Assembly: GCA_016234735.1 (NCBI GenBank)
Contig: JACRAN010000338.1
Location: forward strand, 11,441-75,440
Length of the DNA stretch: 64,000 bases
Origin: Bacteroidota bacterium
GTDB taxonomy: Bacteria; Bacteroidota; Bacteroidia; Chitinophagales; Saprospiraceae
Direction: 5' to 3'
Shown in pieces: positions 3,238 to 54,547 of the stretch. Positions within the stretch are counted from its first letter, which is position 1; every line of letters begins with the position of its first letter. The notes beneath the pieces were generated by a model. It did not search any database. It was given only the letters and a program-made list of their open reading frames with translations, and was not told where the DNA came from. A program made the position numbers and the translations under genes.

Positions 3238-4257
3238 TTATCTGCTCCGCCGCTGCTCCCACTCCCACGCCGACCGCATGATTTCTTCGATGCCCCGCTG
3301 CGGTGCCCAGCCGATGAGCCGGGCGGCTTTTTCGGCATTGGCGTAGATCGCCACCACGTCGCCTGCCCGACGGGGCCCGATTTGGTAGTTGAGCCGCTGG
3401 CCGGTCACTTTTTCAAAGGCGTGGATGGCTTCAAGCACCGTCACCCCGCTGCCGATGCCCGCGTTCAGGACTTCGCAAGGCACGGCCTGTGGGTTTGCCA
3501 TCAGGAATTGCAGGCACTTCGTGTGGGCGTTCGCCAAATCCATCACGTGGATGAAATCACGTACGCAACTGCCGTCACGGGTGTCGTAGTCGCTGCCGAA
3601 GACGGTCATGCTCGCCCGCTTGCCGATGGCCGTCTCCGTGATGACGGGCACAAGGTTGCTCGCCTTCGTGCGGGGCGACTCGCCGATGAGGGCGCTGGGA
3701 TGCGCCCCGGCGGGGTTGAAGTAGCGGAGCAGCATGGCCTTCACCGTCGGGGCAGCTTTGGTGAAATCCCCGATGATTTTTTCGCCCATCTGCTTCGTGC
3801 GGGCGTAGGGGCTTTCGGCTTCCCGGAAGGGCGTGTTCTCGGTCACGGGCAGTTCGGTGGCGTTGCCGTACACCGAGCAGCTCGACGAAAAAATGAAGTC
3901 CGGCACCCCGAACTCCTGCGCACAGGCCAGCACGTTCAGCAGGCTTTCGTTGTTGTTGTGGAAATAGCGCAGCGGCTCGAAGACCGATTCCTCCACGCTT
4001 TTCAGCGCCGCAAAATGGATGATGCCGCTGATGCCGGGATTTTTTTCAAAAACCTGCCGTGTTTTTTTCAGGTCGCAAAGGTTAACCTTGTAGTTTCGCA
4101 CCCGCTGGCCAGTGATTTTTCGGATGCCTGCCAGCGCCGACCCATCGGCGTTGGAGAGGTTGTCGATGGAGAGGACTTCAAAACCGTTGTCCATCAAATC
4201 GACCATCGTGTGGCTGCCGATGTAGCCGCAGCCGCCTGTGACAAGGACTTTTTTCAT
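3238..4257 (-). CDS. galE: UDP-glucose 4-epimerase
   Basis: 339 aa. N-terminal Rossmann motif MKKVLVTGGCGYIGSH and SDR catalytic YxxxK (SPYARTKQM). Length and overall pattern are typical of GalE. Confidence 0.92.
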   Translation of the reverse strand: MKKVLVTGGCGYIGSHTMVDLMDNGFEVLSIDNLSNADGSALAGIRKITGQRVRNYKVNLCDLKKTRQVFEKNPGISGIIHFAALKSVEESVFEPLRYFHNNNESLLNVLACAQEFGVPDFIFSSSCSVYGNATELPVTENTPFREAESPYARTKQMGEKIIGDFTKAAPTVKAMLLRYFNPAGAHPSALIGESPRTKASNLVPVITETAIGKRASMTVFGSDYDTRDGSCVRDFIHVMDLANAHTKCLQFLMANPQAVPCEVLNAGIGSGVTVLEAIHAFEKVTGQRLNYQIGPRRAGDVVAIYANAEKAARLIGWAPQRGIEEIMRSAWEWEQRRSR

Positions 4258-45053: not shown

Positions 45054-47471
45054 TTGAAATTCAAAGAATCCTTCCGTCAGGCGAAGATTTTTGTTAAAAA
45101 ACACAAGGTCAAATTCATCATCGGCTTTGGTTTGCTGTTGGCAGCGTATTGGTTTTGCCTGCCCTCCCCGTTGTTCAAAGACCCGACTTGCATGGTGCTG
45201 GAAGCCAAAGACGGCAGCTTGCTGGGGGCAAGGATTGCCGCCGACGGGCAGTGGCGCTTCCCCTACGAAGCAGTGGTGCCGGAAAAATTTGGGAAAGCCA
45301 TCATTGAATTTGAAGACCGGCGCTTCTACTCCCATCCCGGTTTCGACCCGTTGGCTTTTGGCAGGGCGATGCGCCAAAACCTGAAAAGCCGCAGTGTGGT
45401 GAGCGGCGGCAGCACCCTCACCATGCAGGTCATCCGGTTGGCGAGGAAGGGAAAATCGAGGACTGTTTTTGAAAAAATCATCGAAATTATTTTAGCCACC
45501 CGGCTCGAAATCAGTTACTCGAAGCAGGAAATACTGGCGCTGTACGCCTCCAACGCACCCTTCGGCGGCAATGTGGTCGGGCTGGATGCCGCCTCTTGGC
45601 GCTACTTCGGCAAGGGAGCCGAAAATCTCTCATGGGGCGAAGCGGCTACCTTTGCCGTACTGCCAAACAGCCCCGCCCTCATCCACCCTGGGCGCAACCG
45701 CACCGCCCTGTTTGAAAAACGCAACCGATTGCTGAAGCGGCTTTTCGAGCAAGGCATCATTGACCAACCCACTTACGAACTGGCAGTGGAGGAAGTCCTG
45801 CCAGAAAAGCCGCATCCCTTGCCACGGTTGGCCCCGCACTTGCTGGAGCGGGCTTTCGCTGAAAATTTCAAGTCGAAAACGGGCGAAATCACGCGGTTGA
45901 GAACTACCCTCGACCCTTCGTTGCAAGCCCGGTTGAACGAGTTGGCGCTGCGAAAAAGCATCCAGTTGAAGGGCAATGAAATCAACAACCTCGCTATCCT
46001 CGTCCTCGATGTGGAAACCGGAAATGTGCTGGCCTACATCGCCAATGCCCCGAACACAGGAGCCGAACACGGCGAAGATGTGGACATCATCAAGGCTCCC
46101 CGCAGCACCGGCAGCATCATGAAGCCGCTGCTCTACGCCATGATGCTGAACGAAGGGAAAATCCTGCCGCAAAGCTTAATCTCCGACATCCCGACACAAA
46201 TCAACGGTTACAAACCGGAAAATTTCATGGAGACCTACGACGGCGTGGTGCCTGCCCACCTTGCCCTCTCACGGTCGCTGAATGTGCCGTTCATCAAGAT
46301 GCTGCAGGATTACAGCGTCGAAAAATTCCATTTCAACTTAAAAAAGCTCGGCCTGACCACTATTAACAAACCCCCATCGTACTACGGCTTGACTTTGACT
46401 TTGGGCGGAGCGGAAGGTTCGCTCTGGGAGTTGACCAATGCCTACACCTGCATGGCCCGGACGCTCGCCAATTTTTACGAACGCAATGGATACTACTCGC
46501 CATTGGATTTCAGACCTGCCACTTATTTTGTTAACGATAAAAACAGCGGGAAAGCACCGGAAAAGCAACTGACAAAGGAACCGAAAATGCTTTCCGCCGA
46601 TGCCATCTGGTTCACGCTGGAGGCGATGGAGGAATTAGAGCGCCCAACCACACAGGGCGAATGGGAGCGGTTTGAATCGAGCAGGCGGATTGCCTGGAAA
46701 ACAGGCACCAGCTTTGGTTTCCGCGATGCCTGGGCCATCGGCGTTTCAAAAAAATACGTGGTGGGCGTTTGGGCAGGCAATGCGGATGGCGAGGGGCGGC
46801 CCGGCCTGGTCGGCGTGTACGCCGCTGCCCCCATTTTGTTTGATGTGTTCAGCATGTTGCCCGCCTCCAGGTGGTTCGACCCACCCTACGATGCCATGAA
46901 AAAAATGGCTGTGTGTAAGTTGAGTGGCTATCCTGCGCTTGACTTTTGCGAAAAAGACACGCTGCAAGTCAACGAAAAGGGTATCAATGCGCCTTCCTGC
47001 CCCTTCCATAATATTGTCAATCTCGACAAAACCAGGCGCTGGCAGGTAAACAGCAGTTGCGAACCGCCGATGGCGATGGAGAAAGTTCCGTGGTTCGTGC
47101 TACCCCCCGTGGAAGAATTTTACTACAAAACCAAAAATCCGGGGTACACCCCGCTGCCGCCTTTTCGAAGCGATTGTGAAATTGCAGGGGAGAAGCAGGG
47201 AAGCACCATGCAGTTGATTTATCCAAAAAAAGCCTCGAAAATCTACGTGCCGGTCGAGTTGGACGGCACCGTCAGCCGGACTGTGTTCAAAGTAGCGCAC
47301 CGGAACCCAGAGTTGCTGGTTTATTGGCACATGGACAATGAGTTCATCGGAACGACCAAAACTTTTCACGAGATGGAGATGAATCCGGCGGCAGGGAAGC
47401 ACATCTTAACTTTGGTGGATGAAAAAGGAAACAGGCTGGTGCAGGAATTTGAAATAGTCGTTAAAAAGTAG
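45054..47471 (+). CDS. pbpC: penicillin-binding protein 1C
   Basis: 805 aa. Glycosyltransferase-51 motifs (EDRRFYSHPGFD, GGSTLTMQ), the transpeptidase STGSIMKP (SxxK), and a C-terminal PBP1C-specific domain. The start is TTG in the track. Confidence 0.88.
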   Translation: MKFKESFRQAKIFVKKHKVKFIIGFGLLLAAYWFCLPSPLFKDPTCMVLEAKDGSLLGARIAADGQWRFPYEAVVPEKFGKAIIEFEDRRFYSHPGFDPLAFGRAMRQNLKSRSVVSGGSTLTMQVIRLARKGKSRTVFEKIIEIILATRLEISYSKQEILALYASNAPFGGNVVGLDAASWRYFGKGAENLSWGEAATFAVLPNSPALIHPGRNRTALFEKRNRLLKRLFEQGIIDQPTYELAVEEVLPEKPHPLPRLAPHLLERAFAENFKSKTGEITRLRTTLDPSLQARLNELALRKSIQLKGNEINNLAILVLDVETGNVLAYIANAPNTGAEHGEDVDIIKAPRSTGSIMKPLLYAMMLNEGKILPQSLISDIPTQINGYKPENFMETYDGVVPAHLALSRSLNVPFIKMLQDYSVEKFHFNLKKLGLTTINKPPSYYGLTLTLGGAEGSLWELTNAYTCMARTLANFYERNGYYSPLDFRPATYFVNDKNSGKAPEKQLTKEPKMLSADAIWFTLEAMEELERPTTQGEWERFESSRRIAWKTGTSFGFRDAWAIGVSKKYVVGVWAGNADGEGRPGLVGVYAAAPILFDVFSMLPASRWFDPPYDAMKKMAVCKLSGYPALDFCEKDTLQVNEKGINAPSCPFHNIVNLDKTRRWQVNSSCEPPMAMEKVPWFVLPPVEEFYYKTKNPGYTPLPPFRSDCEIAGEKQGSTMQLIYPKKASKIYVPVELDGTVSRTVFKVAHRNPELLVYWHMDNEFIGTTKTFHEMEMNPAAGKHILTLVDEKGNRLVQEFEIVVKK

Positions 47472-47473
47472 GC

Positions 47474-47548
47474 AAAAAAAAACTCCTACATCAAGGGAGG
47501 CAAAAGGCTGATGTAGGAGCACTAAACATACTATGAGAAAACTACACA
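47474..47548 (-). ncRNA. candidate small RNA, paralog 1 (conserved 20-mer + terminator hairpin)
   Basis: Minus strand: a TACTTTG -7-like box, then AGTTTTCTCATAGTATGTTTAGTG. An 11-bp stem follows (CTCCTACATCA/TGATGTAGGAG) whose loop contains CCTCCC, and then 9 T. Confidence 0.45.
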
Positions 47549-47591
47549 GCGCAAAGTAGCGTAATTCTGAACCTACAAAAAAGCTGCTTTT

Positions 47592-47644
47592 AGGAAACGG
47601 TCGCTTTGGTAAGGAAACGGTCGGTATGGTTTAGTAAATGGTAA
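47592..47644 (-). promoter_or_regulatory. phased direct repeats (candidate LytTR operator) upstream of paralog 1
   Basis: AGGAAACGGTCG occurs perfectly twice (47592-47603 and 47612-47623), with a degenerate third copy AGTAAATGGTAA (47633-47644). Start-to-start spacing is 20 and 21 bp. Confidence 0.5.
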
Positions 47645-47934
47645 TTTCAAATATCGACAGGTAAGATTTTCGGGCAGCGGAATGGATAGAATTCAGACTT
47701 CGTTCATTTTCAAGACAGAAGAAATATTATTTTTTATAATTTTTAACCTTCCGGCACAGAATTGGAAAAGTGGATAATCGTCTTACAAACTGAAAAAAAC
47801 AGGCTCAGGTTTCCAGTTCTGCAAATCACAATTCTTCCTTTAAACTTCACACCGAAGTCCGTTTTCAGGACTTGCAAACAATTCAATTTGGTCATCAATT
47901 TTGGTTGAAGCCATCACATCATTCAGGCCCTGAG

Positions 47935-48004
47935 AAAAAAATTCCTACACCCCAGAAGGGAAACAAAGGTGTAGGAGAATTAAACATACTATGAGAAAAC
48001 TAGA
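47935..48004 (-). ncRNA. candidate small RNA, paralog 2
   Basis: Minus strand: an exact TATCTTTG (TAnnTTTG) box, then AGTTTTCTCATAGTATGTTTAAT. A 9-bp stem follows (TCCTACACC/GGTGTAGGA) whose loop contains TCCCTTC, and then 7 T. Confidence 0.45.
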
Positions 48005-48066
48005 ATCAAAGATAAGACCAACAGTTTTCGGATAAAAGCTATATTTACGCACTGGAAGTTTTTTTA

Positions 48067-48120
48067 AGAAAACGGTAGGGTTCTTTGAGGAAACGGTAGT
48101 TCTTTTTCGATAAACGGAAT
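48067..48120 (-). promoter_or_regulatory. phased direct repeats (candidate LytTR operator) upstream of paralog 2
   Basis: Three copies: AGAAAACGGTAG (48067-48078), AGGAAACGGTAG (48088-48099) and a degenerate GATAAACGGAAT (48109-48120). Start-to-start spacing is exactly 21 bp. Confidence 0.5.
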
Positions 48121-48230
48121 TAATAATCTTAATAATCCTATCCTAAGTCAAAGACAATTTTACTTTTGCAAGGCTGATTAAAGCACTAAATTACTTTTGG
48201 CAACTACACACACATTTTGACCGGCAGGGC

Positions 48231-48303
48231 AAAAAAAATTCCCGCACCCCAGGAGGGACTAAAGGTGCAGGAAGATTAAACAAACATACTATGAGAAAAC
48301 TGT
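48231..48303 (-). ncRNA. candidate small RNA, paralog 3 (also the terminator of the kinase operon)
   Basis: Minus strand: an exact TATATTTG box 4 nt before AGTTTTCTCATAGTATGTTTGTTTAAT. A 10-bp stem follows (TTCCTGCACC/GGTGCGGGAA on minus, with one G-U) whose loop contains CCCTCC, and then 8 T. It begins about 55 nt after the HK stop. Confidence 0.45.
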
Positions 48304-48366
48304 GGCAAATATATTTTATTATTTTTAAATGATAAAATATTTTCACAGAAAAGGTCTTGAATTTCA

Positions 48367-50280
48367 TCACTTTATCTGAATATCCATGATGGGTATCAAG
48401 ACTTCGACTTTCGTTCCAAGTGCCTTGCCGGTTATTTCATCTTCCAAGTCAATGATTTGCACCGCTGTCAATTCAAGATTCCTTGATTGCAACAAGATTT
48501 GAAGCCTGTCCTGGGTAATCCTTGTGCCCATCGACTTGTGATCCTTGAAACCCGGATTTTTTTCCTGAAGCTCCCTGGCTTTCTTGCGGCCAATCCCGTC
48601 ATCTTCGACAATGCACAGAATGGTATTTTCGTCGTGGAAGGTAAATTCTACTTTGATAAGGCCTTTTTTCTTTGAACGGATACCGTGTTCGATTGCATTC
48701 TCCACATAAGGTTGGATAATCATGGTTGGAACACCGTAGATGTCCTCCTCTATTTCCTCATCGATAATTATTTGATACTCAAGTTGGTCCTCAAACCGCA
48801 AATTCATGTTGATTTCGAGGTAATTCCGAAGGAATTCGATTTCTTTTTCCAATGAAATGACTTCCAATTCCGAATATTCCAGGCTTTGCCGCATGAGGTG
48901 GGCAAACTGTGCGAGATACTTAGCTGCCTGCGCAGTGTCGTTGGAAGTGATGCAATTTTGAACAGAGTTCAAGGCATTGAAAACAAAGTGCGGGTTCATC
49001 TGTGCCCGCAAAGCCTTGAGTTGGAGGCCCGCAGCCTGGAGTTTGAACATCTCGGCTTCTTTTTCCTTTCGTTCGGCCGTGAATTTTATTTCAAGTTCCC
49101 TTATTTCCGTATTTTTTTCTTCAAACAGAAAACGTTCAACCGCCTGATTGTACAAAATCTGGTAGTCGTAGGCATTTTTAAAGTCAAGTTCCTTGGCATA
49201 CAAATCGGCAATGTTCTTCAAAATCCCGGTGGCTTGGCGGTAATCTTGTCCCTTCTTGGCAAATTCCAGGGCTTTGAAGTAGTGTTTGAGCGCCTTTTTT
49301 GCTTTCTCTTCTTCAAATATCTTAGCCCGCCACCACTCGATGTTAGCGAGATTTTTATCCCTTTTCTCTTTAAACAACGGGTAGGCCGTTGAAAAAAGCT
49401 CCAAAGCTTCCTTGTACTGCCGTTTGTTCAGGTAACAATATCCCAGATTTGCGTAGGCAATTGCCCGTGCCTGCTGGTTTACATCATCCACTACTTTGAT
49501 GGCTTTTCTAAAATACAGGCCGGCGTTGTCAAAATCCTGTATCGTCATGTAGCCATTGCCCACATTGAGGTAATGCCAGGATAGACGGGACCGCATGCCA
49601 TTTTTTTCACAAAAATCGACTACGTTCAGGTAGGCCTGAATACTCCGCTGTGGTTCATTAAGCAATCCGTAAATGGTACCTAAACCACTTTGAATCAGGG
49701 TGAAAAAATGAAAATCTTTCAAGTCAGGTGTACCTGCCAAATTCTGTATTTCAACTTCACAATCAAGAAATGCCTTGAGTGCTTTGGGGTAGTTTGCAAA
49801 CTTCAGATGGAAAAAGCCTTCCCTGCATATCAATCGAACCCGGAGCCGGTCATCGGGGAATGATTCGAGGTATTTGGAAGCCTGATTCAGGTAAAATCGT
49901 GCCCTGTCGGTTTGGTCGAGATTCAGCAAAGTGCCAGCGTAGTCAATGTAGGTTTCGGCCAATTGGTTGACATCCCCCCGCTCACCGAGAATTTCGAGGG
50001 CTAAACGAAAATGGATTTCGGATAGGTTATAATTGTACAGTTGGTTTTCTACCAGTGCCGTGTTCAGGTGGTAATTGAGGCGGATGTCAGGATGGTCGTA
50101 CTCCGCAAAGATTTCAAGGATTTCGGCCAGGTATTTCTGGGCTTTGGTAATGTCTGAAAAAACTAATTGTGAGGAGAGTTTGTCCAGCGTAGTGAGCCTT
50201 TGAAGGCGTTCGTCAATGAGATGCAGGTTAGATTCCAATTTGATAAGATTCTCGTTGGTATCTGGATAGGTGTGTATCAT
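48367..50280 (-). CDS. TPR-repeat sensor histidine kinase, LytS/YehU-type, no TM segment
   Basis: 637 aa from the ATG at 50280. About 400 aa of TPR-like repeats (e.g. YANLGYCYLNKRQYKEALELF) precede a coiled coil. The His_kinase motif is MNPHFVFNALNSV, and the HATPase has QPYVENAIEHGI ... VEDDGIG. I see no hydrophobic TM stretch or signal peptide. Confidence 0.85.
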   Translation of the reverse strand: MIHTYPDTNENLIKLESNLHLIDERLQRLTTLDKLSSQLVFSDITKAQKYLAEILEIFAEYDHPDIRLNYHLNTALVENQLYNYNLSEIHFRLALEILGERGDVNQLAETYIDYAGTLLNLDQTDRARFYLNQASKYLESFPDDRLRVRLICREGFFHLKFANYPKALKAFLDCEVEIQNLAGTPDLKDFHFFTLIQSGLGTIYGLLNEPQRSIQAYLNVVDFCEKNGMRSRLSWHYLNVGNGYMTIQDFDNAGLYFRKAIKVVDDVNQQARAIAYANLGYCYLNKRQYKEALELFSTAYPLFKEKRDKNLANIEWWRAKIFEEEKAKKALKHYFKALEFAKKGQDYRQATGILKNIADLYAKELDFKNAYDYQILYNQAVERFLFEEKNTEIRELEIKFTAERKEKEAEMFKLQAAGLQLKALRAQMNPHFVFNALNSVQNCITSNDTAQAAKYLAQFAHLMRQSLEYSELEVISLEKEIEFLRNYLEINMNLRFEDQLEYQIIIDEEIEEDIYGVPTMIIQPYVENAIEHGIRSKKKGLIKVEFTFHDENTILCIVEDDGIGRKKARELQEKNPGFKDHKSMGTRITQDRLQILLQSRNLELTAVQIIDLEDEITGKALGTKVEVLIPIMDIQIK

Positions 50281-50417
50281 TAGGTGCAGTGTTTCAAATT
50301 TGAATGAGAAATCCAGAATGTTCGAATAAAAACACCTTGGCATTAAACATAAAAGAGGCAACACACACGTTGGTGCAGCCTCTTCCGAACAAACCTGACA
50401 AACTTACTTCCCGGAAA

Positions 50418-50594
50418 TTATTGTGGCAACTCACCTTGGCAGGGAGCCGGACTGAAAAGCCCGGAAAAAAAGCCTTTTTTCCTAATTTCGCTGGCATTTT
50501 CATTGCCTCCCAGGAATTCGCCCATCTCAAATTTTTTCAATTGATTTAGGTCGTCGAGTTCACCGAGGTTCTTTTTTTTGGTAGTCCTCCCCAT
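50418..50594 (-). CDS. small precursor peptide with double-glycine (GG) leader
   Basis: MGRTTKKKNLGELDDLNQLKKFEMGEFLGG then NENASEIRKKGFFSGLFSPAPCQGELPQ. The leader has hydrophobic residues at -4, -7, -12 and -15, E at -8, and GG at -2/-1. An alternative in-frame ATG at 50630 would add 12 aa. The gene sits between the RR and HK genes. Confidence 0.6.
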   Translation of the reverse strand: MGRTTKKKNLGELDDLNQLKKFEMGEFLGGNENASEIRKKGFFSGLFSPAPCQGELPQ

Positions 50595-50844
50595 AGCATC
50601 TAAGTTTTGAGTGAAAAATCTGAAGTTCATAGTGTTCTCGTTTATTCTGACGAGTTAAAAGTATGTGCGTTCTCCGGTTCCAAAGATAGGGACTTTTCAG
50701 AGTATCCAAAGTCTCCCGACAAAAATTGTCTGTGTAGCCAAAGCCGGGCTGGATGTAGTTCGCCTCTCAAAAAATCCTACTTGGTTGCGGGTTGCCTCCC
50801 ACCAACACTTTTACTCTATCGGTTAAAAAATGTGTAAGTTACAT

Positions 50845-51654
50845 TTAAAGTGCCTCTTCCAACCTCCTCATTTGCTCCATGAAAGCCGGACGCCTCCTGC
50901 GCGAAACTTCGATTTTTTTGCCATCGTCCATCACAAGGTAGCCTCCATCACCTTTGATAAACTTCCGAATATAATTCAAATTGATCACGTGACGCTTGTG
51001 GACCCTGTAAAAATTCAAGACTTGTAGCATGTCCTCGTAGGCTTTGATGGTCTTGGATGCGGTAATCCGGTCACCGTTCGTCAGAAAAATATGGGTGTAA
51101 TTATCCTCGGCTTCAAACCGGACAATGTCTTTGATACTCACAAAGTAGATCCCATCCACTGCCGAAATACTCATTTTTTCAAAGGAATTCGGGTTGCTGA
51201 GTGCCTTGTTGAACAACTCTAGCCGCTCCTCAATCTTCTCGGAACGGTGCGCACGAATCCGGCTCACTGCCTGAACCAACTCATCGGGGTTGATGGGTTT
51301 CATGATGTAGCCGATGGAACTGTACTGGCAGGCTCGGATGGCGAATTCATTAAACGCAGTAATGAAAATGACCTCGAAATCAATGGGTTTCAATTCGTCA
51401 AGCATCTGGAAAATCAGACCATCGGGCAGGTTGATGTCAAGGAAGGCGACATCCGGCTTGAAATCAGGCTCCTCAAATAGTTCTAGCGCTTCCTCAATGT
51501 TCAGGGCATCGGCTACGACCTGAACCTCCGGGCAGTGATTGGCCAGGAGGTTTTTGAGGTTGTTCATGCTTTTGATTTCGTCTTCGACGATTAGCGCTTT
51601 GATCACGGGTATCGATTTACTGAGTTCCAAGGGCTGTGTTGGCATTTTTATCAT
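50845..51654 (-). CDS. LytTR-family response regulator
   Basis: 269 aa. The receiver domain has ALIVEDE and FLDINLPDG. The C-terminal LytTR DNA-binding domain has IVRFEAEDNYTHIF and FYRVHKRHVINLNYI. Confidence 0.9.
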   Translation of the reverse strand: MIKMPTQPLELSKSIPVIKALIVEDEIKSMNNLKNLLANHCPEVQVVADALNIEEALELFEEPDFKPDVAFLDINLPDGLIFQMLDELKPIDFEVIFITAFNEFAIRACQYSSIGYIMKPINPDELVQAVSRIRAHRSEKIEERLELFNKALSNPNSFEKMSISAVDGIYFVSIKDIVRFEAEDNYTHIFLTNGDRITASKTIKAYEDMLQVLNFYRVHKRHVINLNYIRKFIKGDGGYLVMDDGKKIEVSRRRRPAFMEQMRRLEEAL

Positions 51655-51857
51655 CTGCGTGTAAGTGTTTGATGGTCACAAAAATACATTTCCCCGTTTA
51701 GAATATAAAACCGAATGACTATAAAATTTTCCTGCAAATCATGGTTTTACACTTTATCAAAAATAACGTTTCCAAAGAGGCTGTGGCTAACCCATTACGG
51801 AATGTTTTTTTACTAATAAAAATGAAAAAAATTAACACCGCCCGATAATTCAGCACT

Positions 51858-52658
51858 TTACTTTGGTATTGCAATGCGTAATGCCTCATCAAAACTGACT
51901 TTTGGAAACACTTCCAGCTTCCCGCCCGCCGTCGCATCGAGTATTTGACGGCCATCTTTCTGGTAAAAATAGTTGGCTAAGTGGTACGACACCTCCGAAC
52001 CGTACACGTCCGCCAATTGCCACTGCTGCCCCTTGAAGTAGTCTGGGTGAAAGTGGTTTTCGTCATCGCCTTTGTAGGTCTGCACCTCGTGCGATTGCCC
52101 GGCCTGCTTGAAACTGTGGTCAACCCCAATTAAAAACACCCGCCGGAAGCCCATGTAGAAGGCAATTTGCAGGGAAACGAAAGTGACCGTGTTGCCTTCG
52201 CAAATGGGCTGGGCGATGTCCTCGTAAAAGCTCCAGAGGTTCAGCGTGTGCAGCCGGTGAATGTGGGGAGCCTCGGCGACGACACCTTTGGCTGCGGTGT
52301 ACGACAGAAAAACCGGGCACTTCATCGCCTCAAACTCCCTGGCGCTCTGCTCGATGACCAACTGGTTAACCGACACGAGGTAGCTGAGGTGGAGGTCAAC
52401 TTTTTCAAAAATCAAAAATATCTTGTTCTGGCCGAAGGTGTGGTAATTACGAAGTGGAGCCAGGTCCATGTTTTTCAAGGAGGGGCCGTTCCCGATGATG
52501 AAACAATCTTCACCTTTGTGTTTGTCCTTGAATTGGAGCAGGCGTTTGGCGTACTTCCTGCGCCAGGTAAGGTAGTCCCTGGCCTCTTCCCATTTTTTGC
52601 CGAAGCCGTTTTTTTCCAGCAAATTCAGTCCAAAAAGTGCGCCTTGTGGTCTTGCCAT
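51858..52658 (-). CDS. DUF115 / MptE-like (sialyltransferase-like) protein
   Basis: 266 aa. The CFIIGNGPSLKNMDL motif is characteristic of the DUF115/GT42-like fold, with a later LIGVDH segment. Confidence 0.65.
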   Translation of the reverse strand: MARPQGALFGLNLLEKNGFGKKWEEARDYLTWRRKYAKRLLQFKDKHKGEDCFIIGNGPSLKNMDLAPLRNYHTFGQNKIFLIFEKVDLHLSYLVSVNQLVIEQSAREFEAMKCPVFLSYTAAKGVVAEAPHIHRLHTLNLWSFYEDIAQPICEGNTVTFVSLQIAFYMGFRRVFLIGVDHSFKQAGQSHEVQTYKGDDENHFHPDYFKGQQWQLADVYGSEVSYHLANYFYQKDGRQILDATAGGKLEVFPKVSFDEALRIAIPK

Positions 52659-52661
52659 TTT

Positions 52662-53393
52662 TTACAAATCTTTTAAAACAGAACTGATGCCCCCGTCCAG
52701 CAGGAAGTTGGCCCCGTGAATGAACCCGTCGTTTTCCGAAGCGAGGAACAGCGCCAGCTTGGCCACGTCCGCCGGGTAGCCGATGCGCTGCACCGGATGG
52801 ATTTTGCGTAGCTCGTCCAGGGCTGATTCGTCGTTTTCAAAACCGGCCCGCAACATGTCCGTCTCGATGGCAGCCGGGCTGATGGCATTCACCCGCACCC
52901 TGCCCTCCAGGTCTACGGCCATGGACTTTGTCAGCCCCACGAGGGCGCTTTTGGAAGTGGCGTAACTGATGAAACCAGGCTTCGTCAGTTGCTGGTGGAT
53001 GCTGGCGATGTTGATAATGCTTCCCCTGCTTGTTTCCAAACGCCCCAAAAAAAGTTTGCTCAACAGCATCGGGCCGGTCAGGTTCACGTTCAGGGTTTCC
53101 TGCCAGTCTTCGAGCTTGATATTTTCCAATTTATCGAGCCGCTGCACGGCGGCGTTGTTGATCAACACATCGAGCTTGGGCATCACTTCATCGAAAATCT
53201 GCGAAAAACGGATGCGGTAGGCCGCATCCCTGACGAATTGATGTATGTCAAAATGGAGGAAACGGTCGCAATTCCCGTGAAAATCCTCCCGCATGTCCAC
53301 GCCATAAACGTAGAAGCCCTTCTCCCGAAAAGCCTTGGCGAGGGCCGACCCAATGCCGCCGAGTACCCCCGTAATGAATACATTTTTGCTCAT
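52662..53393 (-). CDS. SDR family oxidoreductase
   Basis: 243 aa. TGVLGGIGSALA (TGxxxGxG), NNAA, and catalytic YATSK (YxxxK). Confidence 0.88.
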   Translation of the reverse strand: MSKNVFITGVLGGIGSALAKAFREKGFYVYGVDMREDFHGNCDRFLHFDIHQFVRDAAYRIRFSQIFDEVMPKLDVLINNAAVQRLDKLENIKLEDWQETLNVNLTGPMLLSKLFLGRLETSRGSIINIASIHQQLTKPGFISYATSKSALVGLTKSMAVDLEGRVRVNAISPAAIETDMLRAGFENDESALDELRKIHPVQRIGYPADVAKLALFLASENDGFIHGANFLLDGGISSVLKDL

Positions 53394-53394
53394 T

Positions 53395-54330
53395 TCAAGC
53401 GATTTCTAAAAAACCGAACATCAATTTTATGGCCTGCTTGCTGGCCCGTCGCACGGCATCCACCGTGTTGGAGCCGTTGTGCGTACCGAAAATGCAGCGC
53501 TCAAAACCCCGCAAACCCGAATCGGAAGGCAACGGCTCGTTTTCAAAAACATCCAGTGCCGCCGAGTGTACCTTGCCCGACCGCAAGCCTTCCAACAAAG
53601 CCGCCTCGTCGATTATGCCCCCCCTCGACACGTTCACGATGCGCACCCCGTCCTTCATTTTTCCGATGGAACCGGCGTTGACCAGATGCCTCGTCTCTGG
53701 CGTGAGCGAGCAAGTAATGACCACGAAGTCGGCTTCCGCCAATTTTTCAGGAAAACTGAAAAAGCGGTACTTCATTTCATCCTCGTCCGTTCGGGCGGCG
53801 AAGGGGTCGTACACATTAGTATATAAGCCAAAAGCGTCGAGCATCCGGGCCGTCGATTTTCCAATATCCCCGAACCCGATGACCGCTGCCGTCTTGTCCA
53901 TCAACGAAATGCCCGCCGGTTTGGGCCATTGGCCTTCCCTCACTCCCCGGTCAATGAGGAAAGTCTGCCGGGCCAAACCGATGAGGTAGTGAACTGCGAG
54001 GCTGCCAACTTCTTCGCCGAACATCATCGGGGTGTTGGACACCGGGATGCCGAGTTTTTTGCAGGCTTCAAAATCAACGTTGTCCACGCCGACTCCCCAC
54101 TTCACAGCCGCCCGGAGCCGCCCGTTTTTTCCGGCCCGAAAAACCCGTTCGGTCGCCGGGTCGTCGCCGATTATCCAGCCATCCACCTGGGGCACGAGGG
54201 CGGTCAACTCATCCTCCGTGAGGGTTTGAACGACGTTGGGCGTGATTAATTCAATACCTTTCGCCTCGAATTCCGGGCGGAATTCGTCGATGAGGCGCAG
54301 CATGGGTGGACACGTGACAAGAACTTTCAT
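53395..54330 (-). CDS. D-isomer-specific 2-hydroxyacid dehydrogenase family protein
   Basis: 311 aa from the ATG at 54330. NAD-binding IGFGDIGKSTARML, and a catalytic-domain pattern (NVSRGGIIDE ... FGTHNGS). Confidence 0.82.
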   Translation of the reverse strand: MKVLVTCPPMLRLIDEFRPEFEAKGIELITPNVVQTLTEDELTALVPQVDGWIIGDDPATERVFRAGKNGRLRAAVKWGVGVDNVDFEACKKLGIPVSNTPMMFGEEVGSLAVHYLIGLARQTFLIDRGVREGQWPKPAGISLMDKTAAVIGFGDIGKSTARMLDAFGLYTNVYDPFAARTDEDEMKYRFFSFPEKLAEADFVVITCSLTPETRHLVNAGSIGKMKDGVRIVNVSRGGIIDEAALLEGLRSGKVHSAALDVFENEPLPSDSGLRGFERCIFGTHNGSNTVDAVRRASKQAIKLMFGFLEIA

Positions 54331-54547
54331 CAGATTTTTGAACAAAATAGTGCTTGAATGGCGGCTGATGGGCAGCCCTGACACAAAACCAGGGTTAAGT
54401 GCCGGGTTGCAAAGGTGATTGATAATTTCGACTTTTAAAAATGACCGGCGATTGTTGAAAACCATCCCCGATGTTCGGGAATCATTGGCCAACAATTATT
54501 TACATTGCCTTCCGATATTCGACTTTTTTCAAACTCATTTTTTTGAA

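What the first reader, a model, noticed from the sequence alone, without database searches (positions are those of the whole stretch)
48367..50280. Sensor kinase with a large TPR array but no membrane anchor
TPR-containing LytS-type kinases in Bacteroidota usually carry a signal peptide and/or a TM helix between the TPRs and the His_kinase domain. In this 637-aa protein I cannot find any hydrophobic stretch. The TPR array runs straight into a coiled coil (…EEKNTEIRELEIKFTAERKEKEAEMFKLQAAGLQLKALRAQ) and then MNPHFVFNALNSV. That implies a cytoplasmic ligand, such as a re-imported or non-exported peptide, or a protein partner.
Basis: partly seen in the sequence, partly recalled or inferred. Interest (0 to 1): 0.6.

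Follow-up and report, generated by a model that had tools for sequence, protein, structure and literature searches.

The report
Membrane-free TPR sensor kinase, peptide-linked
This is a sensor kinase that sits entirely inside the cell and, across the Saprospiraceae family of bacteria, is almost always encoded next to a small export-type signal peptide, which suggests an undescribed way of reading a peptide signal from inside a Gram-negative cell.

Summary
The gene at 48367..50280 (-) encodes a 637-aa protein made of about nine TPR repeats, one 75-residue coiled-coil helix that carries the phospho-acceptor His431, and an ATPase domain. It has no transmembrane helix and no signal peptide. The upstream in-frame extension is not conserved.

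More than 180 relatives (36-84% identity, Saprospiraceae, Lewinellaceae and Haliscomenobacter) also lack a membrane helix. About three quarters of the next-nearest TPR/His_kinase proteins have an N-terminal hydrophobic segment plus a helix just before the kinase.

In 57 of 58 related loci, a small gene lies between a LytTR regulator and the kinase. It encodes a double-glycine leader and a core ending in C-G-G-I-(V/L)-P-Q. Five loci keep only the peptide-kinase pair.

Genomes with the kinase almost always carry a C39 peptidase exporter (45/47 against 11/34).

In an AlphaFold model of a natural read-through peptide-kinase fusion, only the conserved C-terminal decapeptide of the upstream (peptide and spacer) segment becomes confident.

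Best reading: a cytoplasmic receptor kinase for the neighbouring peptide. This is a new variant that combines pheromone three-component systems with cytoplasmic TPR peptide receptors. Peptide binding, export and re-import are inferred, not shown.

The parts
48367..50280 (-). Soluble sensor histidine kinase, 637 aa (stop codon 48367-48369)
   Evidence: ORF. Pfam TPR plus His_kinase PF06580. No TM segment. AlphaFold2 pLDDT 84. Start supported by the lengths of relatives and by an upstream stop in L016.
49192..50205 (-). TPR superhelix, residues 26-363 (18 helices, about 9 repeats); proposed ligand-binding part
   Evidence: AlphaFold2 helices H26-39 to H347-363, pLDDT mostly above 90. Best Foldseek matches are peptide-binding TPR arrays: LGN/Pins first, then Rap, NprR and RapF at ranks 29-48. 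A helices are more conserved than B helices.
48958..49182 (-). Single 75-residue helix, residues 367-441: coiled-coil linker running into DHp helix 1
   Evidence: AlphaFold2 H367-441. One heptad register has 74% hydrophobic a/d positions against 34% elsewhere.
48988..48990 (-). Codon of His431, the predicted phospho-acceptor in the invariant QMNPHF motif
   Evidence: Translation. Invariant in 30 and in 76 aligned relatives.
48370..48861 (-). ATP-binding catalytic domain, residues 474-637 (N box E527-N528...H532-G533; G boxes D560-x-G562-x-G564 and G585)
   Evidence: Invariant columns. Alpha/beta fold in the model. The only solved relative of this kinase core is 6swj, E 6e-17 with the family profile and 4e-14 with the C-terminal 217 residues alone.
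50281..50364 (-). In-frame upstream extension (GTG start); not part of the protein
   Evidence: Not conserved. It is closed by a stop in L016 and L017. Most relatives are 637-641 aa.
50418..50630 (-). Small peptide gene, 70 aa. Double-glycine leader (...LNQLKKFEMGEFLGG), then core NENASEIRKKGFFSGLFSPAPCQGELPQ
   Evidence: ORF. A homologous small ORF lies in the same gap in 57 of 58 RR+HK loci, with tail consensus C-G-G-I-(V/L)-P-Q. It is the only strict GG-leader small ORF in the genome. A conserved TAnnTTTG box lies upstream.
50845..51654 (-). LytTR-type response regulator, 269 aa; presumed phosphorylation partner
   Evidence: Pfam Response_reg plus LytTR. Lies upstream on the same strand in 58 of 81 loci.
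47474..48313 (-). ORF-free stretch downstream of the kinase with three repeated modules; candidate output genes (small RNAs according to earlier notes)
   Evidence: No ORF of 60 aa or more. Repeat families D2 and D3 occur three times each. One terminator-like hairpin at 48240-48254. The RNA claim itself was not tested here.
47592..47641 (.). Phased direct repeats AGGAAACGGT at 20-bp spacing; candidate LytTR sites
   Evidence: Genome-wide, close-matching phased pairs occur only in this locus.
48067..48117 (.). Second set of phased AGGAAACGGT-like repeats at 21-bp spacing

Best explanation
The protein is a cytoplasmic receptor kinase for the small peptide encoded just upstream of it.

Anatomy (shown in silico). 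A nine-repeat TPR superhelix is joined by one uninterrupted dimeric coiled-coil helix to the phospho-acceptor His431, followed by an intact ATP-binding domain. Nothing in the protein can span or cross a membrane.

Proposed mechanism (inferred).
1. The neighbouring gene makes a precursor with a classical double-glycine leader.
2. A C39-peptidase ABC exporter, encoded elsewhere in the genome, cleaves after GG and exports the core.
3. The core returns to the cytoplasm.
4. Its conserved C-terminal tail (C-G-G-I-V/L-P-Q; here P-C-Q-G-E-L-P-Q) lies in the concave TPR groove.
5. Closing or twisting of the superhelix is passed along the coiled coil and changes autophosphorylation of His431.
6. The phosphoryl group goes to the adjacent LytTR regulator.
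7. The regulator's best candidate targets are the phased repeats in front of the repeated non-coding modules just downstream of the kinase.

In function this is a pheromone three-component system in which the usual membrane sensor has been replaced by an RRNPP-like intracellular TPR receptor. I hold the peptide-to-TPR link more firmly than the export-and-re-import route.
For: Soluble and intact kinase. No TM segment or signal peptide here or in more than 180 relatives, with positive controls. H, N and G boxes are invariant. The TPR array, coiled coil and His helix are continuous.

Genetic linkage.
- 57 of 58 RR+HK loci across three families carry the peptide gene in the RR-HK gap.
- Five loci with 4 kb of upstream sequence keep the peptide-HK pair without the RR.
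- A TM-anchored relative (P0189) and another soluble relative (P0193) have HK-RR order and no peptide gene, so the peptide goes with this family.

Ligand-like conservation. Tail counts among 63 peptides are C 55, G 50, G 44, I 44, P 62 and Q 54, while the Lys-rich middle varies. Two leaderless variants still keep C-G-x-x-T-P-Q next to the kinase.

Export.
- The leader matches the double-glycine pattern: acidic at -8, M/L at -7, I/F at -4, GG at -2/-1.
- A C39 exporter is present in 45 of 47 kinase-positive genomes against 11 of 34 kinase-negative ones. Fisher p is 6e-10, and 2e-5 within the 3.5-5.5 Mb size class.
- This genome has two such exporters, each with an HlyD-like partner and no substrate gene beside it.

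Docking hint. In an AlphaFold2 model of the natural in-frame read-through peptide-spacer-kinase of L023, built with 21 paired rows, the block NNGCGGILPQ has pLDDT 78 and no secondary structure. The leader scores 49-55, the Lys-rich part 40 and the spacer 26-30.

Fold. The closest solved folds are TPR arrays that hold extended peptides in the groove, including Rap, NprR and RapF.

A route back in is conceivable: one SBP_bac_5 protein with an OppB-like permease is encoded at C144.
Against: - No binding, export or uptake was observed; everything is comparative or modelled.
- The structure tool returns no coordinates or PAE.
- Peptide distances do not track TPR distances once kinase-domain distance is controlled (partial rho about 0).
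- Twelve kinase loci with more than 2 kb of upstream sequence show no peptide gene there (13 counting L090), yet the no-peptide group tested keeps the same conserved TPR residues. Either they read a peptide encoded elsewhere, or those residues are only structural.
- Re-import of an 18-28-residue peptide across two membranes needs an outer-membrane route that was not identified. No SbmA/BacA or OPT transporter is present.
- The exporter co-occurrence is not corrected for phylogeny.
- G007 has the full module but no detected exporter (92% complete), and the leaderless variant's genome G081 does have one.
Confidence: 0.55

Rival explanations
1. The peptide acts inside the cell. The kinase binds either the unexported precursor or the free leader that the cytoplasmic C39 domain releases. 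The circuit would then measure the cell's own production or export flux, or the small protein would act as an Sda/KipI-like modulator of a soluble kinase. It would not measure population density.
For: The receptor is cytoplasmic, which is the simplest place for it to meet the precursor. No dedicated importer is linked, and no SbmA/BacA or OPT transporter is present. Two lineages carry a leaderless peptide next to the kinase, one of them in a 100%-complete genome with no C39 exporter. The fused (uncleaved) form already gives a confident tail in the model.
Against: The leader keeps every hallmark position of an export leader across three families. The kinase co-occurs strongly with C39 exporters, which is hard to explain if export were irrelevant. 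The leader itself is not predicted confidently in the fused model (pLDDT 49-55), which argues against leader sensing.
Confidence: 0.2
2. The TPR array binds a protein partner or another cytoplasmic cue. The peptide is merely a regulated product of the system, such as a bacteriocin-like or secreted signal read by something else.
For: TPR arrays commonly bind proteins; the top structural matches LGN/Pins, APC/C and OGT do so. Orphan paralogues work without an adjacent peptide gene and keep the same conserved residues. There is no peptide-TPR co-variation. The mature cores are cationic, as many antimicrobial peptides are.
Against: Peptide-kinase adjacency persists even where the regulator is absent (5 loci). 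No immunity or modification gene is conserved nearby. The tail is conserved over a whole family, unlike bacteriocin cores. The tail becomes ordered in the fused model.
Confidence: 0.15
3. The kinase works at the membrane after all. It would be recruited by an unidentified membrane protein, for instance the exporter, that senses the extracellular peptide and passes the signal to the TPR array.
For: Co-occurrence with C39 exporters. TPR domains are frequent adaptor modules.
Against: No membrane protein is conserved in the neighbourhood; the flanks are PBP1C, an MptE-like protein, an SDR and a dehydrogenase. The exporters are unlinked. Nothing in the sequence suggests an amphipathic or lipid anchor.
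Confidence: 0.06
4. Annotation artefact: the true protein has a membrane anchor that is missed because of a wrong start, a frameshift or an assembly error.
For: The open frame extends 28 codons upstream to a GTG, and that stretch is mildly hydrophobic (KD 1.23).
Against: The extension contains Pro and Arg, falls below the TM threshold, is not conserved, and is closed by a stop in close relatives. Hundreds of independent assemblies give the same 637-641-aa TM-less protein.
Confidence: 0.02

Closest known systems
Three-component peptide-pheromone systems of Firmicutes (ComC-ComD-ComE, BlpC-BlpH-BlpR, PlnA-PlnB-PlnCD)
   Same: A small gene with a double-glycine leader sits beside a histidine kinase and a LytTR response regulator. 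Export is presumed to go through a C39-peptidase ABC transporter. The peptide gene has its own promoter. LytTR-style phased direct repeats lie nearby.
   Different: Those kinases (HPK10 type) sense the peptide outside the cell with a 5-7-helix membrane domain. Here the kinase core is the LytS/YehU type (PF06580), the sensor is a soluble TPR array with no membrane helix, the host is a Gram-negative Bacteroidota, and the gene order is RR-peptide-HK.
RRNPP(A) cytoplasmic peptide receptors (Rap, NprR, PlcR, PrgX, Rgg/ComR, AimR)
   Same: A cytoplasmic TPR superhelix of about nine repeats is encoded next to a small propeptide whose conserved, presumably active part is the C-terminal end. The fold resembles Rap, NprR and RapF (Foldseek E about 1e-7, TM about 0.5).
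   Different: No sequence-level membership: there is no HTH or phosphatase N-domain, and the output is a C-terminal histidine kinase. The fold likeness is generic TPR likeness, since LGN and consensus TPRs score better. The propeptide uses a double-glycine leader rather than a Sec or PptAB route. RRNPPA systems are described from Firmicutes and their phages (PMC9765709, which contrasts membrane-attached kinases with re-internalised RRNPPA ligands).
Membrane-anchored TPR + His_kinase (PF06580) sensors of Bacteroidota (e.g. P0189; compare FimS of Porphyromonas gingivalis, NCBIfam NF053520)
   Same: The domain order TPR array, helix, His_kinase, ATPase is the same, and the partner is also a LytTR regulator. 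There is a weak NCBIfam match to the TPR part of FimS (E 2e-6, 26 bits against a cut-off of 600).
   Different: Those carry an N-terminal hydrophobic segment and a TM helix 45-55 residues before the histidine, so their TPRs face the periplasm. Their gene order is HK-RR with no peptide gene. The FimS cut-off is far from met.
Soluble cytoplasmic-sensing histidine kinases modulated by small proteins (KinA with Sda or KipI; NtrB with PII). This comparison is from general knowledge and was not tested here.
   Same: A histidine kinase with no membrane segment whose activity is set by a cytoplasmic ligand or small protein.
   Different: Those use PAS or other sensor domains, and their ligands are not leader-bearing export peptides. 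No homology was found.

Membership tests
LytS/YehU-type histidine kinase core (Pfam His_kinase PF06580 + HATPase_c) | PF06580 match above the gathering score, with the conserved N-P-H-F phospho-acceptor motif | tested here: met
   81 bits against a cut-off of 25.2. QMNPHF is invariant in 30 and in 76 relatives.
LytS/YehU-type histidine kinase core (Pfam His_kinase PF06580 + HATPase_c) | Intact ATP-binding N and G boxes | tested here: met
   E527, N528, H532, G533, D560, G562, G564 and G585 are invariant. Alpha/beta domain in the model. PDB 6swj matches at E 6e-17 with the family profile. The Pfam HATPase_c score itself is below its cut-off (18 against 26 bits).
LytS/YehU-type histidine kinase core (Pfam His_kinase PF06580 + HATPase_c) | Multi-helix membrane sensor (5TM-5TMR_LYT) as in LytS, BtsS and YpdA | tested here: not met
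   No hydrophobic segment at all.
Peptide-pheromone three-component systems (ComCDE/Blp/Pln type) | Adjacent small gene with a double-glycine leader | tested here: met
   57 of 58 loci. The leader has D/E at -8, M/L at -7, I/F at -4 and GG.
Peptide-pheromone three-component systems (ComCDE/Blp/Pln type) | LytTR-family response regulator partner | tested here: met
   Response_reg plus LytTR. Adjacent in 58 of 81 loci.
Peptide-pheromone three-component systems (ComCDE/Blp/Pln type) | Polytopic membrane kinase (HPK10) that senses the peptide outside the cell | tested here: not met
   The kinase is soluble and of PF06580 type.
Peptide-pheromone three-component systems (ComCDE/Blp/Pln type) | Peptide is cleaved at GG, exported and acts as an inducer | not testable with these tools
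   Only indirect evidence: C39 exporter co-occurrence of 45/47 against 11/34.
RRNPP(A) receptors | Cytoplasmic TPR receptor encoded next to its propeptide | tested here: met
RRNPP(A) receptors | N-terminal HTH or Rap-type phosphatase effector domain, and sequence homology to the family | tested here: not met
   Pfam and NCBIfam show no such domain. The output is a C-terminal kinase. Fold likeness is no better than to generic TPRs.
RRNPP(A) receptors | Mature peptide is imported and binds in the TPR groove | tested here: inconclusive
   The fused AlphaFold model gives pLDDT 78 for the tail decapeptide only, but no coordinates, PAE or control were available. No co-variation. A candidate SBP_bac_5/OppB importer is present.
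Periplasmic-TPR sensor kinases of Bacteroidota (FimS-like) | Signal peptide or N-terminal TM, plus a TM helix between the TPRs and the kinase | tested here: not met
   Absent here and family-wide. Present in about 60 of 82 more distant relatives. NF053520 scores 26 bits against a cut-off of 600.

The most novel reading that the evidence does not exclude
This would be a peptide quorum-sensing system native to Bacteroidota. A double-glycine pheromone is exported by a C39 ABC transporter and re-imported across both membranes. It is then read by an intracellular TPR receptor that is itself a histidine kinase, in effect an RRNPP-like receptor fused to a two-component output. That kinase drives a LytTR regulator and a set of local small RNAs. 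It would be a third architecture of peptide sensing, beside membrane kinases and RRNPP transcription factors, and it is conserved across Saprospiraceae, Lewinellaceae and Haliscomenobacter.
Probability: 0.3. Interest if true: 0.85.

Novelty: new variant of a known kind. Interest (0 to 1): 0.62.

Why it matters
Peptide signalling is textbook biology for Gram-positive bacteria and comes in two forms. Either a membrane kinase reads the peptide outside the cell, or a cytoplasmic TPR transcription factor reads it after import. This module combines an export-type peptide with a cytoplasmic TPR receptor and a two-component output, and it occurs in a Gram-negative phylum where peptide quorum sensing is essentially undescribed. 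The five literature searches aimed at it found no paper on it.

The module is present in about 58% of sampled Saprospiraceae genera. These bacteria are abundant in activated sludge and on marine algae and particles. If confirmed, it would give a handle on how they coordinate behaviour and add a new receptor-kinase design for synthetic signalling. Cultured carriers make it directly testable: Lewinella cohaerens DSM 23179, Phaeodactylibacter luteus KCTC 42180, Neolewinella marina and Haliscomenobacter hydrossis.

On its own, a soluble histidine kinase is not new. The interest lies in the conserved pairing with the peptide.

Tried and rejected
- Hidden anchor from an upstream start: rejected.
- Mirror-tree test. 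Leader or tail distances were compared with TPR distances while controlling for kinase-domain distance. Partial rho was -0.03 and 0.04, so there is no co-evolution signal. The result is uninformative rather than negative, because the tail hardly varies.
- Differential conservation between peptide-linked and orphan kinases: no TPR column is conserved in one group only, so binding residues could not be pinned down this way.
- First fused alignment (single fusion plus separate peptide rows): MAFFT scattered the peptides over the kinase, so it was discarded. It was replaced by 21 natural in-frame read-through fusions.
- Leaderless peptide as a natural experiment for exporter loss: G031 fits (no exporter) but G081 does not, so the result is ambiguous.
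- Search for the candidate regulator site AGGAAACGGT upstream of the peptide gene: not found with up to one mismatch. Direct autoinduction of the peptide promoter through that site is therefore unsupported.
- Other importers: SbmA/BacA and OPT are absent.
- NCBIfam and Pfam give no family for the peptide.
- The structure tools return no coordinates or PAE, so conservation could not be mapped onto the groove and the contact site of the tail could not be read.
Full report
**What is at the coordinates**

The minus-strand frame 48367..50364 is open from a GTG (665 aa). Pfam finds TPR families over roughly residues 110-370, His_kinase PF06580 (81 bits against a cut-off of 25.2) and a weak HATPase_c. 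The quoted coiled-coil text and the MNPHFVFNALNSV motif are present. His431 is encoded at 48988-48990.

**Is there really no membrane anchor?**

- The highest Kyte-Doolittle 19-residue mean within the 637 residues is 1.01. The only higher value, 1.23, lies in the upstream extension, which contains Pro and Arg. The usual TM threshold is 1.6.
- The N-terminus is polar.
- As a positive control, the same script finds hydrophobic segments 45-55 residues upstream of NPHF in most of the other PF06580 kinases of this genome.
- The 28-codon extension is not real. Relatives are 637-641 aa. In the close relative L016 an in-frame stop lies two codons before the aligned ATG, and in L017 the frame is also closed.
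- AlphaFold2 with 30 relatives (mean pLDDT 84) gives 18 helices forming a TPR superhelix (residues 26-363). A single helix then runs from 367 to 441 and contains His431. A second DHp helix (449-470) and an alpha/beta ATPase domain follow.
- The long helix has one clean heptad register: 74% hydrophobic a/d positions against 34% elsewhere. This fits a dimeric coiled coil that couples the TPR array rigidly to the catalytic histidine.
- H, N and G boxes are invariant, so the kinase looks active.

DeepTMHMM and SignalP could not be run.

**Is this a peculiarity of one gene or of a family?**

- A search of 5.8 billion proteins returns over 1000 hits. The best 120 (52-84% identity) are nearly all 620-660 aa and are labelled Saprospiraceae, Phaeodactylibacter or Bacteroidota. 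None has a TM segment in the body of the protein.
- An exhaustive HMMER search of 1.8 billion representatives shows a sharp break. About 62 full-length representatives (257 bits or more, single collinear match) are all TM-less.
- Below 232 bits, about 60 of 82 proteins carry an N-terminal hydrophobic segment and/or one strong TM helix 45-55 residues before the histidine. About 16 are other TM-less forms.
Soluble TPR/His_kinase proteins are a minority, not a singularity. This family is one coherent soluble clade.
- In 81 genera of the window's own family (genomes at least 90% complete), 47 carry a full-length orthologue.

**Surroundings**

Upstream on the same strand lies a Response_reg plus LytTR regulator (50845..51654). 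Between it and the kinase is a 70-aa ORF (50418..50630) with a double-glycine leader. I fetched 80 related genomic loci and mapped regulator, kinase and small ORFs.

- 58 of 81 loci, including the window, have the regulator upstream, and 57 of these have a small ORF in the gap.
- Its leader follows the export-leader pattern: hydrophobic at -15 and -12, D/E at -8, M/L at -7, I/F at -4, then GG.
- Its core is 16-28 residues. The middle is variable and Lys-rich. The tail is strongly conserved; counts among 63 peptides are C 55, G 50, G 44, I 44, V/L/I, P 62 and Q 54.
- The window's clade has a longer core (GFFSGLFSPAPCQGELPQ) that keeps C-x-G-x-L-P-Q.
- Five loci with 4 kb of upstream sequence keep the peptide-kinase pair but have no adjacent regulator.
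- Twelve loci with more than 2 kb of upstream sequence are orphan kinases with neither. L090 has the regulator but no peptide gene.
- A membrane-anchored relative (P0189) and a different soluble relative (P0193) have HK-RR order with no peptide gene. The peptide is therefore a trait of this family.
- A conserved Bacteroidota-type TAnnTTTG box precedes the peptide gene.
- The convergent PBP1C gene downstream (45054..47471) is syntenic in many loci. The module is a few GC points below its flanks in 37 of 43 loci. This looks like an old, vertically kept module with its own composition rather than a recent import.

**Does the peptide leave the cell?**

- The genome has two C39-peptidase ABC exporters, each followed by an HlyD-like protein and with no substrate gene beside them.
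- With a strict leader pattern, the window's peptide is the only double-glycine small ORF in the whole genome.
- Across the 81 genera, a C39 exporter is present in 45 of 47 kinase-positive genomes and in 11 of 34 kinase-negative ones. Fisher p is 6e-10, and 2e-5 when restricted to 3.5-5.5 Mb genomes. This is not corrected for phylogeny.
- One exception, G007, is a 92%-complete genome with the full module. The other, G031 (100% complete), has a peptide without a double-glycine leader that still ends in C-G-V-S-T-P-Q. The same leaderless type occurs in L081, whose genome does carry an exporter. That natural experiment is suggestive but ambiguous.
- A possible inner-membrane route back exists: one SBP_bac_5 protein with an OppB-like permease. 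SbmA/BacA and OPT transporters are absent, and no outer-membrane route is identified.

**Does the kinase bind the peptide?**

- *Fold.* The best solved matches of the model are TPR arrays that hold extended peptides in the groove (LGN/Pins with NuMA, Frmpd or Insc). The Firmicute pheromone receptors Rap, NprR and RapF come at ranks 29-48. This is generic TPR likeness, not family membership.
- *Conservation.* The A helices, which line the concave face in TPR arrays, are more conserved than the B helices, especially over residues 187-285. TPR consensus residues contribute to this.
- *Co-variation.* None is detectable once phylogeny is controlled. Orphan kinases keep the same conserved residues.
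I therefore used loci in which the peptide and kinase genes happen to be in the same frame and read the intervening stops as Gly. This gave 21 paired peptide-spacer-kinase rows plus 29 kinase-only rows.
- *Result.* In the AlphaFold2 model of the L023 fusion, per-block pLDDT is 49, 55 and 49 for the leader and 40 for the Lys-rich part. It is 78 for residues 41-50 (NNGCGGILPQ, no secondary structure), 29, 26 and 30 for the spacer, and above 90 for the TPR array.
- *Reading.* A Gly-rich, unstructured decapeptide that alone becomes confident is what a docked segment looks like. I count this as a hint, not a demonstration.

**Output side**

The 900 bp between the kinase stop and PBP1C have no ORF of 60 aa or more. 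They contain three repeated modules and AGGAAACGGT repeats at 20-21 bp phasing. Genome-wide, close matches to such a phased pair occur only here. Earlier notes of this scan interpret these as LytTR-driven small RNAs. I confirmed the repeats and their uniqueness, not the RNAs. The repeat is not found upstream of the peptide gene.

**Synthesis**

- *Shown in silico.* This is a soluble, apparently active TPR/coiled-coil/His_kinase protein. It defines a family that is tightly linked to a double-glycine peptide gene and usually to a LytTR regulator, in genomes that nearly always have a C39 exporter.
- *Inferred.* The peptide's conserved C-terminal tail is the ligand of the TPR groove. Ligand-induced change is passed along the continuous coiled coil to His431. 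The regulator acts on the local repeat-bearing modules.
- *Least certain.* How the peptide meets a cytoplasmic receptor is unresolved: export followed by re-import (true quorum sensing) or sensing inside the cell.
- *Odds.* About 0.55 that the kinase is the cytoplasmic receptor of this peptide; about 0.3 for the full export-and-re-import scheme; 0.2 for purely intracellular sensing; 0.15 for another ligand; 0.06 for a membrane partner; 0.02 for an artefact.

**Comparison with what is known**

In logic it is closest to the ComCDE/Blp/Pln three-component systems, and in receptor design to RRNPP receptors. It fails a defining feature of each: it has no membrane HPK10 sensor, and it has no HTH or phosphatase domain or sequence homology. 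It belongs to the PF06580 kinase family by its core but lacks that family's usual membrane sensor. It differs from the membrane-anchored TPR kinases of Bacteroidota, including FimS, where NCBIfam gives 26 bits against a cut-off of 600. Literature searches found no description of it. A review of RRNPPA systems explicitly contrasts membrane-attached kinases with re-internalised RRNPPA ligands (PMC9765709). I rate it a new variant of a known kind, with interest 0.62.

**Limits**

TM prediction rests on hydropathy with controls plus AlphaFold, not on a trained predictor. The co-occurrence statistics are not phylogenetically corrected. The docking hint rests on pLDDT alone.

Noticed in passing
L105 (G031:C93) 3566-3718 and L081 3744-3887: Leaderless variants of the peptide sit directly upstream of kinase paralogues that have no adjacent regulator. 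They have a Ser/Thr/Asn-rich N-terminus and no GG, and end in ...YCGVSTPQ or ...FCGMPTPQ. G031 is 100% complete and has no C39 exporter; the genome of L081 has one.
   Followed up: partly
L035, L041, L044, L050, L069, L072, L075, L077, L078, L080, L087, L091: Orphan paralogues of the soluble kinase (39-51% identity) lie in unrelated contexts with no regulator and no peptide gene. The no-peptide group tested (which did not include L035) keeps the same conserved TPR residues. Haliscomenobacter genomes appear to carry both an orphan and a full module.
   Followed up: partly
window 47474-48313: Three repeated non-coding modules and phased AGGAAACGGT repeats (47592-47641, 48067-48117) lie downstream of the kinase. 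Close matches to the phased pair are unique to this locus in the 4.9-Mb genome. Earlier notes call them LytTR-driven small RNAs.
   Followed up: partly
G000 C177:8478-12407 and C243:11240-14819: Two C39-peptidase ABC exporters, each paired with an HlyD-like protein, have no recognisable substrate gene beside them. The window's peptide is the only strict double-glycine small ORF found in the genome.
   Followed up: partly
window 48000-52000 and 43 related loci: The RR-peptide-kinase module is lower in GC than its flanks (0.44 against 0.53 here; lower in 37 of 43 loci, by up to 9 points in GC-rich genomes). Synteny with PBP1C is nevertheless conserved, which suggests an intrinsic compositional bias rather than recent transfer.
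   Followed up: partly
L101-L103 (protein P0193): A different TM-less TPR/His_kinase clade has HK-RR order and is flanked by YadA_head/Peptidase_S74 (tail-fibre-like) proteins. No peptide gene was called there.
   Followed up: no
window 51858-54495: A tightly packed minus-strand trio of MptE-like (DUF115), SDR and D-2-hydroxyacid dehydrogenase genes lies upstream of the regulator. The MptE-like gene is syntenic with the module in several relatives (L016, L017, L020, L057, L059, L076).
   Followed up: no
peptide cores of L026, L028, L029, L043 and others: Many cores contain K-N-W-N-N-G just before the Cys. From memory, this recalls the E. coli 'extracellular death factor' NNWNN. It is probably coincidence and was not tested.
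   Followed up: no
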